Shown one piece after another: positions 5,833 through 62,222 of a stretch of 64,000 nt of DNA. Below the pieces are notes generated by a model that saw only the letters and a list, made by a program, of their open reading frames with translations, did no database searches and was not told where the DNA came from. The translations under genes and the position numbers were made by a program. The stretch is from assembly GCA_964016885.1 (NCBI GenBank), contig OZ024741.1:332754001-332818000 (forward strand), given 5' to 3'. Origin of the DNA: Eledone cirrhosa. Its lineage: Eukaryota. Position 1 is the stretch's first letter. Each line of letters begins with the position of its first letter.

Positions 5833-6010
5833 TAAAAAAACGAAAAATCAGTGATGCATCTGGACTCAGTTTATTGCGTGTTACAATTGTTTCGCCGGCA
5901 GGTAGCTCAAGACATGATCACTGTAGGGATCTGGCTGATTCTACGGCTGCAGGTTCCTTCGGACACATGCAATTCTTTCTGAGCAAATTTTATATATATA
6001 TGTATATAGG

Positions 6011-6098
6011 AAAATGTTCAAGACCCCGACGGCAGAGCTCAAGCCGTTTCAACGGCTATTTCTGGACTGAGCTCTGCCGTCGGGGTCTTGAACATTTT
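6011..6098. repeat. Perfect 31-bp-arm hairpin
   Basis: AAAATGTTCAAGACCCCGACGGCAGAGCTCA / TGAGCTCTGCCGTCGGGGTCTTGAACATTTT, with an inner AGCCGTT/AACGGCT stem. Confidence 0.9.
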
Positions 6099-6723
6099 TC
6101 TATTACCCACTCTACTACCCTAAGTATTAAGTACTCTGGTGCATTATGGTCCACCTGGTTCCTTACCACACTTCGTTTTATATATATATATATATACATA
6201 AAATAAGGAAAAGCGAAGTGTTTTCAGATGTTCAAGTCTTTTAATAATAAGGCTGTGATATATATTTCAATTGCGACAGTGGCCACACAGTTCCGTGCGC
6301 CAGTGTCGCGACACCGTGAAACCATGATACATAGAATTAAGTATATTTTCTCTTAGAGGTTGATGGTCAATTATACTGTCCATGCTTAATGAGAGGTAGT
6401 ATTCAGACCTGTAGATACTCACACTCTCCAATCCCCACTGGCTTTCGGCTGACTGCCACAGACGGGGTGGGTAGCAGTAAACTATATATTACAGGCCTGA
6501 ATGGATCATTGTTTGGCTTAGAGGGGGAACTGACTAAGCGAATTTCGTTGAAATCTGCGGTAGCTAATGGTCAACTTCCTTCGGACCTGCACCTGTGCAG
6601 ACCGGTGGGGGTGAATTGGTACTCACAGGGGAATGGATGAAGAACCCAAGAGCACACACTTTGTCCGTTCCCATGTCGATTCAATTTGGATTGCCTCGGA
6701 AACATAACCTTATTATGTAACAA

Positions 6724-6797
6724 GCTGTCTGATGATGTCACGACACTGGTGCATGGAACAGTGTGGCCACTGTCGCCATTGAAATATATATCACAGC
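6724..6797 (+). ncRNA. Type I minimal hammerhead ribozyme motif
   Basis: GCTGT-CTGATGA-[stem II CGACA...TGTCG]-GAAA-TATATA-TC-ACAGC. Stem I GCTGT/ACAGC is perfectly complementary and stem III is palindromic. Confidence 0.75.
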
Positions 6798-6939
6798 ATT
6801 ATTATTAAAAGACTTGAACATCTGAAAATACTTCGCTTTTCCTTATTCGATATTTACTCCGTCACTCCTATGTGGAATAAGTACGTTGAGTGCTTGAATT
6901 GAATTGCATCAATGTTTACCCTAAGTATATATATATAGA

Positions 6940-6973
<34 letters not shown>

Positions 6974-6992
6974 GATATATATGTGTGTGTGT

Positions 6993-9900
6993 GATCATCA
7001 TCATCATCATCATTTTATGTCTGCTTTTCCCTGCTTGCAAGGGTGGGATGGGTCTTATTCAGCACAGCATCTCTCCACTTGTCACGATCCTTCGTCATCT
7101 CCACCATGAGCTTCAGCGATCTGAGGTCTGTTCTCACCACCTCCACCCATGTTTTCCATGGTCTACCTCTACCACATCTTCCTTCAACTGGCATTTCCTT
7201 GCACTTCTTTACCCATCGGTCATCCTCCATGCACATCACATGTCCATACCACCTCAGTTTCCTCTCTCGCACACTACATTCTATCCCTCTCAGACACAGT
7301 TTCTCTCTCAACACATTCATGCTGGGTCGTTCACGCACATTGACATTGCACATCTAACGGAGCATGTTTGCCTCATTTCTCTCCAGCCATCGCATATCCT
7401 CTGCAGTTGCTGCCCATGACTCACTACCATGCAGCATCGCGCTCCTCACACAGACATCATATAACCGGCCTTTCGTACGGAGGGAGAAACCCTTCTTTGT
7501 TAGCAGAGGAAGCAGCTCCCTAAACTTCTTCCAACCCATCTTTATTCTAGACACTATGGCCTCGGAACCCCCCCCCCCCCCCCCCCCTCCCATGCTAATC
7601 TGATCTCCCAGGTACCGGAAACTATCCTTCACTTCTATAGCACCCGCCTGCATTTGAAAAATGTGTCTATCAATATGACTTCTACTGTCTAATTTCCCTG
7701 TACATCTACTGCATACGTATTTCTCCCTACCTGTTTGTTTGCCTGCTATCCCACTACATCTCTTGTGTACCCAGAATATGCATTGGGTGCATTTTATAGA
7801 ATTTATGCCAGTTCCTTTTCTGCATATCGAACATGGCCATTTCCTTGACGGAATCAGAGTTTTGTCCTCTTTTCTACTTATCAACACTTTTGTCTTAACT
7901 ATGTTCACTCTCAGTCCTCTTGCTTCCAACTGCTGTTTCCATAGCCAGAACTTTTTCTCTAGCTCCTCTACTGATTCTGCTACAAGAACCAGATCATCAG
8001 CATAGAGAAGTTCCCATGGACAGCCAGTCTTAAACTCCTGTATTATGGCTTGGAGGACTATAATGAACAAGAGCGGGCTGAGGACTGAACCTTGATGTAC
8101 TCCTACTTGTATCTGGAAATCCTCACTAAACTCCATTCCTACCCTGACTTTACTGACAGTACCTCTGTACATAGCTTGCACTGTCATCACAAGCCATTCC
8201 TCTACACCTAGTTTCCTTAGGGACCACCAGATACAAAGTGGGGTACCTTATCAAACGCCTTCTCTAGGTCAATAAGTATAGTGGCTTATTATTCTCTAAG
8301 AACCTCTCTTGTAATTGTCTCACCAAGAAGAGGACATCTGTTGTACTCTTCCCAGGCACAAAACCAAACTGCATCTCATCTAGTTTGAACCTTTCTCTAA
8401 TTAGTTGCGCTAATATCCTTTCTGCCACTTTCATGACCTGATCCATCAGTTTTATGCCCTATAATTGCTCCTCTCCAGAGCATTGCCTTTACCTTTGTAG
8501 CAATTTATGAGAATAATGCTTCACCAGTTTTGGGTATGACACCACCATATATAGCCTGATTGAGGATGTGTGCAACTAGTTTAGTGCCTACATCCCCTGA
8601 TGCCTTCAGCATCTCAGCAACTATCCCTGATGGTTCAGCAGCCTTACCATTTTTCATTTCATTAATTGCATCTTGGACCCTATATTCGTCAATCTCAATA
8701 GCTGGTCCCTCTGTCGGATCTACTGAGGGTAATTCTCTCTCTCCCATTCGTTCTCCACATACATCAGTCTCTCATAATGACATTTCCAGGCCTCCTTTTT
8801 CTGATCATTCGTGACACTAAGTACACTTGCATCATTCCGGACACATTTATCTCCAACAACATCCTGATTTGCATTGACACACTGCCTTGCAATGTGGAAC
8901 ACTGCACGCCTCTGTTCTTCCTGTCGCAGAACATTGGCAAACCTCCTACTCTCAGCCTCCCCGCGTGCTAAGTACACCTGACATCTAGCTTCTCTCTTAG
9001 CGGCTGTATATCCTTCTCTACTCCCACCCTTTTTCCAAGCATTCCATGCTAGTCTTTTGTCTCTAATGGCCTTATCTACTGTGCTGTTCCACCACCAAGT
9101 CACTCTCTGTCTGGTTGGAGCTTTGCTCCAGCCACAAGTTTCATCAGTAGCCTGCAGTAAGTTGTCACATAAGAAATTCCAGTTATTATCTATGTCATAC
9201 GTTTCTAAATCGTCTTCTCTTTCGTCATACACATATTGAAGGGCTTTCCTAAATTTGTATTTTAGTGAAAGGCCCTTTAGCTTCCAGACCTTTCTTCTCC
9301 ACACCTTCCTGTATGTCTCATTCCATCTCTTGCTTACTGAGATATCACTAACGACTAACCTATGCTGTGGGGTACATTCTTCCTCAGGGTATGCCTTGGT
9401 ATTAGACACCAGCTGCCTGTCCCACTAGTAAGAAGTCAATGTGGCTTATGTGCTCGCCTGATTTGTAGGCTATTAGGTGGTTGGCAGGTTTCTGGAAGTT
9501 AGTGTTGCAAATAGTCAGTGTACTTGCATCACAAAATTCAAGAAGTCTCACTCCTTCTTCATTTCTTGAGCCCTAACCGTGCCCACCATGTACCCCAGTG
9601 TAACCATCCTGGAGCTGTCCAACATGACCATTGAAGTCCCCTGCTAGCATAACGATGTCTCTGTCCTCTGTCATTGTGGTTGTTTGTAAAAGTTGCTCAT
9701 AAAAGCAGTCTTTCTCTTCTTTGCCTAGGCCTGCTTGGGGAACATAAGCAGAGATGATTGTCAGTAGTCTGCTGCCTACAACTAATCTAAGCTTAATTAT
9801 TTGATTACTAACTTGAACTACCTCTATTGTCTTATTGATCCATCTCTCAGCCAGGAAAATGCCTACTCCCCCTAACCCATCATCCTTACCTACCCAGAAA

Positions 9901-13977: not shown

Positions 13978-14043
13978 TATTTCATTATACATATTTCAAG
14001 GGCCACCAAGGTAGTTTATGGTGCGCTTTCATCAGATAAAATA
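13978..14043 (-). ncRNA. Type I minimal hammerhead motif (left arm of palindrome)
   Basis: Minus strand: TATTTTAT-CTGATGA-AAGCGCACCA...TGGTGGCCCTT-GAAA-TATGTA-TA-ATGAAATA. Stem I pairs with one G-U, and AATAAA follows. Confidence 0.65.
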
Positions 14044-14180
14044 TAATATAGATTAGTTTTATAAATGAATATTGACATACCCTGAAAAAATGCAACCTTC
14101 ACGGTTGGAGTCTCCAGGAGACTCCAACCATGAAGGTTGCATTTTTTCAGGGTATGTCAATATTCATCTAATCTATATTA

Positions 14181-14246
14181 TATTTTATCTGATGAAAGCG
14201 CACCATAAACTACCTTGGTGGCCCTTGAAAAATGTATAATGAAATA
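14181..14246 (+). ncRNA. Type I minimal hammerhead motif (right arm of palindrome)
   Basis: Same motif as the left arm, but stem III reads AATGTA (one substitution). Confidence 0.55.
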
Positions 14247-59954: not shown

Positions 59955-61049
59955 TGTATATTTATTAATGGATCTTCTGAAACTAACAAAGTCAATCTGT
60001 GAACACAGAAGTGAATATTTCAAAATACGTTGCAACCGGAGGAAGACAGGAAGACGATACTTTGGTTCGTGGAAACGTGCCCTGGCAAAGAACGGGAAAA
60101 AACGAATATAATACGTCATTATTTGGAGCGGTGAAAAACAATTACACGCAAAGACAAAACCACGTTTATGGTATAAAAGAAGTCGTAGACGAATATTCTC
60201 TTAGGTGGTTCATAGAGACGTTCTCTGGCAATGAACGGAAAAAACGAAGATTTTACGTCATATGTGGAGCGTGGAGAACAATTGCACGCAAAGACAAAAC
60301 CACGTAAATGGTATAACTGAAGTCGTAGACTGAAATTCTAACTAGGAAACCGAATGATTCTTGGCTTCAGAGTTAAGAATAAAGTAAATAAAATAGAGGT
60401 AAAAGAAATTAAATAAATACATACACGCATCCATATACGTACATACACAAGCATACGCGAAAACACTCGCCATAGGTATACAAATACACGCACGTACAAC
60501 CCCCCCCACCCCACCCAAAAAAGCCCCGCACGCACATACAGAACTCACGCAACGCCTGTACCCGCACGCATACGAATGTAAACCAAATACACATAAAAAA
60601 ATATATATAAAAAAAATATATATATATATATGTGTGTGTGCGTGTATACATATAATTAAATAAACGTATATAAATAAATTAATACGTATATAACAAGCGC
60701 ACACACATACCTACATGTAAATACACATATGTTCGGAGACGCACGTCAACCAAAACACAAAGTACACATATACACATACCCTACATACTTACGAACAGAC
60801 GCAAAACTCACGTATACACATAACCAAAAGCATATGTACCAGAATATATAATATATACGCCATAACATATACAATCAAATATACGTACGAGAAAGTATAC
60901 GTACGTTCACGAAACATACAGGTAATATATACTTACCTATACAAATAAGTAATGGTATAAACATAACATATACTTAGCTACCACATCAAGACGTAAAATA
61001 TCAGCGTATAGTTCGTACTATCCGTTAGGGTATAATGTGGGGCTGTAAT

Positions 61050-62222
61050 ACAGGAAAGTTTTGTGCAATTTATGTTCACAAGCCGAAATTGCTTCAAATT
61101 TTTGTTTAAGATGTGGTCTTTGGCGTAGAGTATTTCCAGGGCCTCAGCGGCTCAGAGGTCACATGGTCATTTATTTCCTTTATACCATCTAGCCCTAGCT
61201 AGGATCTCCCAGTGTAACTTATATTGGGTGTGGTTGTCTTTTAGACTCCAGATATAAGCTGAAAGTGACGTCATATTCCTTCTTAAAGGGTAACGAAAAG
61301 AATGTAAAGACGCTGCTTGAATCTATTGGCGGTTAACCTTATGTAGGCCCTACGGGACGTGGGTGTTTCCACCTTACATTTGTAGACAATATTACTAGAG
61401 AGGCATTTCCCGGATAGGGGGCAGTCAACCCGATTCCTACAATTACAGTTAGTACTAACTACAGGGTTGCACGTGTACCTACGGCTAGGTAGTTTAGCTA
61501 AATTTGAAGCTGTGATGTTATGTGCAAGGTTAGGAGTCGCAGAGTAAAAAATTTTAATAGTATTTCTATTAAAAATTTTACTATATTTATGTGTAGGGGG
61601 AAAATGCTTCATAATAAGGGAGAAAAAGATCTTAGCTAATGGTGTGGCCACCTCCATATTATATGGTGGGTTATGCCATATAATGCGTCGGATCTATTTC
61701 TTCTAGGTCTGTTCTCGTACTCTGTATATGCTACCTTATCGACAAATCCACTCCGAGCAAGAGCTTCATTGTAATATGTGGAATGGTCGTTGAAAATATG
61801 CTCGTTAGTAGATAGACAGGAAAGCCTCAAAGAAACGTTTCTTACCAGGTTCTTGGTTATGCTGGCAGAATGGTTAGAATGCTTACTTATGTAATTAAGC
61901 GTATCATTCGGCTTTCTATACGGGTAATGCAAGCCATTCAATAAATTGAGGGTAACGTCGAGGCAATTAACGACCGAGAGGTTTGTCTCAACCTGTATGG
62001 AGAGGTTGAAGCCTTTAAAGAAGGCTGTGAGTTCTTTTCTGAACCTGTCACAAGCACGTGGGCCGCACTTAGTCATGGTCAAAAGACCATCAACACGGTA
62101 CAAACCACCGCCCATGTTGGGGAATTCTTCCTTGATAGAGAAAAGAAGGAAAAGGCCGATAAGATCAGTAACCTCCGCAGAATCGCTGGCGCCCATACTC
62201 ACGTCGAATGGGATACTATTAG
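61050..62222 (-). mobile_element. Penelope-like element remnant (RT C-terminal half plus GIY-YIG endonuclease)
   Basis: VSMGASDSAEVTDLIGLFLL, GGLYRVDGL (YxDD), CLDVTLNL...YPYRKPN..NYISKHSNH, CNCRNRVDCPLSGKC, NIVYKCKV...AYIRLTANRFKQRLY; frameshifted. Confidence 0.9.

What the first reader, a model, noticed from the sequence alone, without database searches (positions are those of the whole stretch)
6197..6930. Element of about 730 bp with an inverted partial terminal repeat that stops at the ribozyme core
Seen: 6202-6313 is the reverse complement of 6736-6847. The right copy is preceded by GCTGT-CTGATGA, giving a complete hammerhead, while the left copy ends right at the core boundary. The whole unit is bounded by (TA)n. 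Known: Penelope insertions often carry an inverted truncated pLTR at the 5' end. Inference: a non-autonomous Penelope-like insertion, and the cleanest ribozyme candidate here.
Basis: partly seen in the sequence, partly recalled or inferred. Interest (0 to 1): 0.72.

Follow-up and report, generated by a model that had tools for sequence, protein, structure and literature searches.

The report
Truncated hammerhead-bearing Penelope-type parasite insertion
This is one decayed, one-off insertion of a common protein-free repeat that carries a hammerhead ribozyme motif and likely borrows Penelope-type retrotransposon enzymes; its mirror-image end is the usual footprint of such insertions, and its stopping at the ribozyme core is likely chance.

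Summary
The inverted repeat is real (6202-6313 vs 6736-6847, 105/112 identical) and a type I hammerhead core lies at 6729-6792. But the 730-bp unit is not a family: its junction is unique in the genome. Bases 6312-6926 are the 3' half of a 1.33-kb non-coding monomer with at least 1,748 ribozyme copies, found as 5'-truncated, partial-tandem and head-to-head insertions in (TA)n. In 90 copies picked by their terminus, 61 have an inverted arm whose outer end is nearly fixed (70-79-nt tail) and whose inner end scatters; 0 of 61 stop at the core boundary, and 0 of 151 5' ends lie at the cleavage site. This is Penelope-like (PLE) insertion architecture. An older sister family shares only the ~260-nt ribozyme-plus-tail module. 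The ribozyme is a U10.1-U11.1, palindromic-stem-III variant predicted to need a dimer; the window copy is a poor candidate. No autonomous partner or RNA evidence was found. New member of a known kind; the scan noted similar PLE stubs on other DNA.

The parts
6179..6196 (.). left (TA)n target microsatellite, shared with the neighbouring family-B element
   Evidence: a TSD cannot be read inside (TA)n
6202..6313 (-). inverted 5'-truncated arm (monomer 1137-1248): stem II, GAAA, stem III and 3' stem I of the ribozyme, without CUGANGA and without the tail
6312..6313 (.). inversion junction, 2-nt CA microhomology (8 of 11 bases match the continuing arm); unique in the genome
6312..6926 (+). 5'-truncated direct copy = positions 716-1327 of the 1.33-kb non-coding monomer, 96.7% to the family majority
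6660..6926 (+). pLTR-like cis module (monomer ~1062-1327): the only part shared (67-73%) with an older sister family; full-length copies often begin near its 5' edge
6724..6797 (+). type I hammerhead motif: stem I 6724-6728/6793-6797; CUGAUGA 6729-6735 (family majority CUGACGA); long stem II 6736-6780 opening with U.U; GAAA 6781-6784; palindrome AUAUAUAU 6784-6791; predicted cut after C6792
6797..6798 (+). empty SINE hot spot (CACAGC^ATTATTATT), occupied in 34 of 110 arms elsewhere
6849..6926 (+). tail, 70-79 nt (6857-6926 or 6849-6926), present only on the direct arm; ends TTTACCCTAAGT
6926..6982 (.). right (TA)n target microsatellite

Best explanation
This is a single 5'-truncated, 5'-inverted insertion of a 1.33-kb protein-free repeat that carries a type I hammerhead motif and is likely reverse-transcribed and inserted into (TA)n by the enzymes of an unidentified autonomous Penelope-like element (PLE). 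Shown: the monomer has no long ORF, lies in partial tandems, ends at a fixed tail, and the two arms of one insertion share private variants, so both were copied from one template. Inferred: a transcript starting near the 5' edge of the ~260-nt pLTR module runs through the next monomer uncleaved; a PLE RT-endonuclease nicks (TA)n and primes at two sites 70-79 nt apart (tail end and monomer 1249/1257), as PAc does in vitro (PMC11167929); the two cDNAs, or one cDNA folding back, are joined head-to-head over a few bases of microhomology wherever synthesis stopped. Here it stopped by chance next to A9. The ribozyme is kept by selection on source elements and would cleave only as a dimer or with protein help; this copy is likely inactive.
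For: Copy number: 3,832 first-look candidates, 1,748 exact 19-mers of the ribozyme 3' half, 301 exact termini followed by TATATAT, controls 0. Unit: 31 of 38 contexts upstream of monomer position 1 are the previous pLTR end, 3 are inversion junctions, 3 microsatellite, 1 other (a place may be counted twice); longest stop-free frame 103 aa; no tRNA or Rfam head. Architecture: 61 of 90 copies have a head-to-head arm; 48 of 55 measurable outer ends lie at 1244-1258; inner ends run from 24 to 1247. Same template: shared variants 0.024 per site vs 0.0076 in shuffles (max 0.0116 of 500; 37 loci). Microhomology of 2 nt or more in 16 of 21 clean junctions vs 18% by chance. Sister family shares only 1062-1320. 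Ribozyme: 12-nt core intact in 78 of 86 arms; C7>U 31 of 147 but G8>A 4 of 147; G-C>A-U in 36 copies; sister family keeps core, stem I and palindrome, with A-U for G.U at 10.2/11.2. The genome holds many RT plus GIY-YIG PLEs.
Against: No autonomous partner found: no sequence link to 30+20 GIY-YIG loci or 30 Hydra-type loci, nor beside 30 sister-family loci. No TSD is readable. The tail is about twice the 30-40 bp reported. 39 of 61 junctions have extra bases that I did not resolve. Covariation in the 28 closest copies is not above shuffles (316 of 500); the compensatory change is one linked subfamily event, and one distal stem II pair is broken in 49 copies. Core conservation (1.6%) is close to non-polymorphic flank (2.1%). 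Rfam gives no hammerhead hit. One 10-monomer array has alternating 99%-identical units, so some spread is probably at DNA level.
Confidence: 0.85

Rival explanations
1. The copies are dead-end stubs of an autonomous PLE with a long 3' UTR, not a self-copying non-autonomous family.
For: Autonomous PLEs in this genome have long non-coding 3' regions; most copies are truncated; only about 400 loci were read.
Against: Upstream of monomer position 1 lies the previous pLTR in 31 of 38 contexts and an ORF in none seen; pure monomer arrays exist; no PLE protein matches the monomer.
Confidence: 0.07
2. A classical non-LTR retrozyme: the ribozyme cuts tandem transcripts into monomers that circularise, and the circles are the templates.
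For: One hammerhead per monomer, head-to-tail arrays of up to 6 units per arm; palindromic stem III suits dimer cleavage (PMC7229834, PMC4209133).
Against: 0 of 151 5' ends lie within 3 nt of the cleavage site; ends cluster weakly upstream of the ribozyme (1067-1085, 9 vs 4.0 expected, post hoc p=0.015), which fits linear uncleaved RNA. A circular template would leave no end at the cut, so this rival is not excluded and is compatible with PLE mobilisation.
Confidence: 0.2
3. The arm stops at the core because stem II or the ribozyme fold makes RT pause or switch template there.
For: The window junction has 8 of 11 bases of imperfect complementarity; two direct 5' ends lie at 1134 and 1137 and one other inversion at 1128.
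Against: 0 of 61 inverted inner ends within 1137+-5; all ends 2 observed vs 3.4 expected.
Confidence: 0.05
4. A MITE or DNA transposon with long TIRs.
For: Inverted repeats near both ends.
Against: Arms of variable length, 29 of 90 without a detected arm, a one-sided tail, 5' truncation, tandem arrays; junction unique.
Confidence: 0.01

Closest known systems
EN+ Penelope-like element insertions (Penelope/Poseidon, Neptune, Hydra, Naiad; PMC8557442 passages and section 11, PMC3846280 passages)
   Same: 5' truncation, partial tandems forming a pLTR, adjacent inverted 5'-truncated copy, one-sided tail, (TA)n targets that hide TSDs, type I hammerhead in the pLTR
   Different: No RT-EN ORF; tail 70-79 nt rather than 30-40 bp; partner not identified
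Metazoan non-LTR retrozymes (PMC7229834 passages; bioRxiv 10.64898/2026.07.22.740005 parts 1-3 of 5)
   Same: Non-coding tandem monomers with one type I hammerhead each; proposed to use PLE machinery
   Different: Monomer 1.33 kb (reported about 300 bp, and 51-972 bp); mostly dispersed complex insertions with full PLE hallmarks; circular RNA untested
PLE hammerhead variants with palindromic helix III (PMC4209133 parts 1-2 of 4) and the natural U10.1-U11.1 variant (PMC3088659 passages)
   Same: Conserved core, short stem I, long stem II, palindromic stem III that would need a dimer
   Different: No G10.1-C11.1 and no bulge after A9; stem II about 19 bp with internal C.C mismatches
Non-autonomous Chlamys elements such as MRC1 (PMC8557442 passage)
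   Same: Non-coding PLE dependants with pLTRs and head-to-tail copies
   Different: Those resemble a known autonomous family at the 3' end and mostly lack canonical hammerheads

Membership tests
PLE-type insertion | partial tandem forming a pLTR | tested here: met
PLE-type insertion | inverted 5'-truncated copy next to the 5' end | tested here: met
   61 of 90 copies
PLE-type insertion | one-sided tail | tested here: met
   48 of 55 outer ends at 1244-1258; tail 70-79 nt, longer than 30-40 bp
PLE-type insertion | target-site duplication | tested here: inconclusive
   ends lie in (TA)n or (TC)n
Autonomous PLE | RT plus GIY-YIG ORF | tested here: not met
   longest stop-free frame 103 aa; no tblastn match
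Non-autonomous PLE | pLTR shared with an autonomous partner | tested here: inconclusive
   none in 80 PLE loci; 10,596 and 46,354 first-look candidates exist
Type I hammerhead | 12 conserved core nucleotides in a three-stem junction | tested here: met
   window sequence; 78 of 86 arms; sister family
Type I hammerhead | canonical G10.1-C11.1 pair | tested here: not met
   U.U in 161 of 166; sister family U.U 11, G.U 7, A-U 2 of 20; known natural variant per PMC3088659
Type I hammerhead | self-cleavage | not testable with these tools
   monomer fold predicted 3.5-3.8 kcal/mol below the open-core fold
Non-LTR retrozyme | two or more consecutive units with a complete hammerhead | tested here: met
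   array G000:C1:130.88-130.89 Mb; not met by the window copy itself
Non-LTR retrozyme | circular RNA intermediate | not testable with these tools
   no RNA holder listed
MITE / DNA transposon | fixed TIRs at both ends | tested here: not met

The most novel reading that the evidence does not exclude
The ~260-nt module that two otherwise unrelated non-coding families share is a stand-alone PLE mobilisation signal with a double-length (70-79 nt) tail, and its U.U-variant hammerhead is under selection although it never marks the 5' end of an inserted copy: the ribozyme acts at a step other than template maturation, for example protein-assisted cleavage after reverse transcription. More than a thousand natural junctions plus an ORF-free 1.33-kb unit would then make PLE trans-mobilisation and the role of the PLE hammerhead directly testable.
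Probability: 0.3. Interest if true: 0.55.

Novelty: new member of a known kind. Interest (0 to 1): 0.3.

Why it matters
The locus itself is ordinary. The family gives insertion-level support for the proposal that animal hammerhead repeats are PLE parasites, which so far rests on co-occurrence and pLTR similarity in vertebrates (10.64898/2026.07.22.740005). It also agrees with the in vitro result that uncleaved RNA is the PLE template (PMC11167929). Repeat annotation would likely call such copies MITEs or unknown repeats.

Tried and rejected
Rfam at E<=1 on the window and the monomer and E<=10 on 6650-6860: no hammerhead hit. Partner search: GIY-YIG family search with 30 loci, 20 long-ORF regions, one Hydra-type EN search with 30 loci, a shared-terminus pattern (30 loci) and sister-family flanks (30 loci) gave no link. 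Covariation on the 28 closest copies was uninformative. RNA: no RNA holder listed; contigs of two runs of unrecorded kind from one sample hold the family but may be the assembly's source, so they are no support. An excess of 5' ends at 1198-1207 (9 vs 2.9) was rejected as a cleavage signal: these ends lack ACAGC and sit on the SINE target. A tRNA-derived head, suggested by earlier notes on other DNA, was not found. A loop II pseudoknot was considered by eye only and not tested. The search of earlier findings by sequence returned nothing. Six paper searches listed no description of this family or of a SINE hot spot in a PLE ribozyme; Repbase/Dfam could not be searched, and I read no supplement (those of the bioRxiv paper are closed), so prior annotation is not excluded.

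Full report
Observation. The window lies in a 3.0-Gb animal genome (G000:C2). Bases 6202-6313 are the reverse complement of 6736-6847 at 105 of 112 positions. (TA)n flanks both ends.

The real unit. A search with the whole 729 bp found many copies, but among the 40 scored only the window matched end to end; the others match from window 6312 on (3,832 first-look candidates). The junction 23-mer occurs once in the genome, with one mismatch allowed. The other copies continue upstream into a 715-nt region and then into the previous copy's 3' end, which defines a head-to-tail monomer of about 1,327 nt (L006:786-2112). Window 6312-6926 is monomer 716-1327, 96.7% identical to the majority. The monomer has no stop-free frame over 103 aa, no match to PLE proteins and no tRNA or Rfam head. 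Upstream of position 1 lies the previous pLTR end in 31 of 38 contexts. The ribozyme's 3' 19-mer has 1,748 exact matches; the 27-mer terminus with TATATAT has 301; both controls were 0.

Insertion architecture. I read 90 loci taken from the first 100 listed of those 301 termini (contigs C1-C3; 9 already held under other ids were left out, among them the window's, and 2 neighbours were merged). 61 of 90 have a head-to-head inverted arm; very short arms are missed. The outer end is nearly fixed: 48 of 55 measurable ends lie at 1244-1258, mostly 1257 before (TA)n or 1249 before (TC)n, which leaves a 70-79-nt tail on the direct arm only. Inner ends scatter from 24 to 1247. The two arms of one insertion share private variants about three times more often than shuffled pairs (137 in 5,609 sites, 37 loci), so they come from one template. 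Of 22 junctions without extra bases, 17 overlap by 2 nt or more (16 of 21 after dropping one 18-nt overlap; 18% expected by chance); 39 have unresolved extra bases. Partial tandems, an adjacent inverted truncated copy, a one-sided tail and (TA)n targets are the PLE hallmarks given in PMC8557442 (passages, section 11) and PMC3846280 (passages). PMC11167929 (parts 1-2 of 4) traces the tail to two RT start sites. A MITE is excluded.

Is the stop at the core special? No. 0 of 61 inverted arms end within 1137+-5; over all ends, 2 were seen against 3.4 expected from the neighbourhood. The window junction has the family's modal 2-nt overlap, extended by an imperfect 8-of-11 match that may have helped annealing; I did not test that against chance. 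No 5' end (0 of 151) lies within 3 nt of the cleavage site. A weak post hoc cluster at 1067-1085 (9 vs 4.0, p=0.015) coincides with the edge of the conserved module and may mark the RNA start (inference).

Cis module. A 68%-identical relative (L274) led to an older sister family (920 candidates, about 80% copy identity). It shares only monomer ~1062-1320 with this family, at 67-73%: an upstream GATTGCCTCGGAAAC motif, the ribozyme and the tail. This defines the pLTR as about window 6660-6926.

The ribozyme. Stem I has 5 bp. Stem II opens with U.U, G.U, U-A, C.C and then about 14 pairs. Stem III is the palindrome AUAUAUAU. The core is intact in 78 of 86 arms. At the core CpG the free position C7 is U in 31 of 147 copies while G8 is A in only 4 of 147. 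A subfamily changes a G-C pair to A-U (36 copies) and closes a C.C mismatch (56), but a distal pair is broken in 49; these are linked events, and the 28 closest copies show no covariation above shuffles. The sister family has U.U, G.U or A-U at 10.1/11.1 (11, 7, 2 of 20) and A-U at 10.2/11.2, which supports the register. My descriptor found 316 hits in 45 groups in 1.26 Mb of partly overlapping loci against 1 in shuffled DNA, several groups opening stem II with U.U. PMC3088659 (passages) reports U10.1-U11.1 as a natural variant and the best-tolerated mismatch. Rfam misses the motif. As a monomer the core is predicted to be paired away, 3.5-3.8 kcal/mol below the open form. PMC4209133 (parts 1-2 of 4) found low activity for such motifs; the 2026 preprint (parts 1-3 of 5) saw cleavage in 1 of 9 dimers. 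The window copy is a lone monomer with CpG-type changes at 6733, 6740, 6750 and 6754, and in a transcript across the locus the left arm is predicted to pair with the ribozyme (stem I probability 0, against 0.83 for the pLTR alone). It is a poor test candidate; intact tandem copies are better.

Partner. The genome holds RT plus GIY-YIG ORFs and an abundant family whose 918-aa frame has the RWK, DKT and CxCX5C motifs of the Hydra clade (PMC8557442 section 11, which notes (TA)n targeting). None of the 80 loci read shares sequence with this family. PLE mobilisation is therefore inferred from architecture, not from a named partner.

Verdict. A real, ordinary, decayed insertion of a new non-autonomous PLE/retrozyme-type family. 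Points of some interest are the long monomer, the double-length tail, the module shared between families, and the lack of any DNA footprint of cleavage. The host looks like a coleoid cephalopod; this is recalled from the repeat landscape and was not tested. Earlier scan notes describe similar stubs on other DNA; they are not used as support.

Noticed in passing
window 6797|6798 (monomer 1199); reference SINE L113:2729-2914: A ~186-nt SINE sits 5 nt downstream of the predicted cut in 34 of 110 arms, always in the element's sense, with different TSD lengths and 5' truncations even between arms of one locus, so the hits are independent. Elsewhere it targets ^ATTAT(T). A Dong/R4-type driver and a Deu/Nin domain are guesses from recall.
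   Followed up: partly
window 6004-6180: A different abundant (2,000 candidates) fold-back element in (TA)n with a hammerhead-like 3' half (GAAAC GGC...GCC GTC), an inverted arm ending at TTTTCC and a ~78-nt one-sided tail that also contains TACCCTAAG; many copies have nearly the same small structure.
   Followed up: partly
window 13985-14239: Head-to-head pair of complete hammerheads of a third family (CTGATGA AAGCGCACC...CCCTT GAAA; A10.1-U11.1).
   Followed up: no
window 25202: Another hammerhead-like motif on the + strand with a long stem II.
   Followed up: no
G000:C1:130880500-130897000 (L291, L292): Head-to-head array of about 4+6 monomers; the + arm alternates two units (99% alike within, 93% between), which suggests DNA-level duplication of a dimer or copying of a dimeric circle.
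   Followed up: partly
window 7015-9424 (-): Decayed LINE reverse-transcriptase frames (YADD motif) ending in a (GAT)n tail just right of the element; RTE-like by recall.
   Followed up: no
window 61021-61917 (-): Frameshifted endonuclease region of a Hydra-type PLE, 87-94% identical to L095.
   Followed up: no
loci L001-L327: Some 45 groups of type I hammerhead motifs crowd in (TA)n-rich flanks; at least eight open stem II with U.U and would fail canonical descriptors and Rfam.
   Followed up: partly
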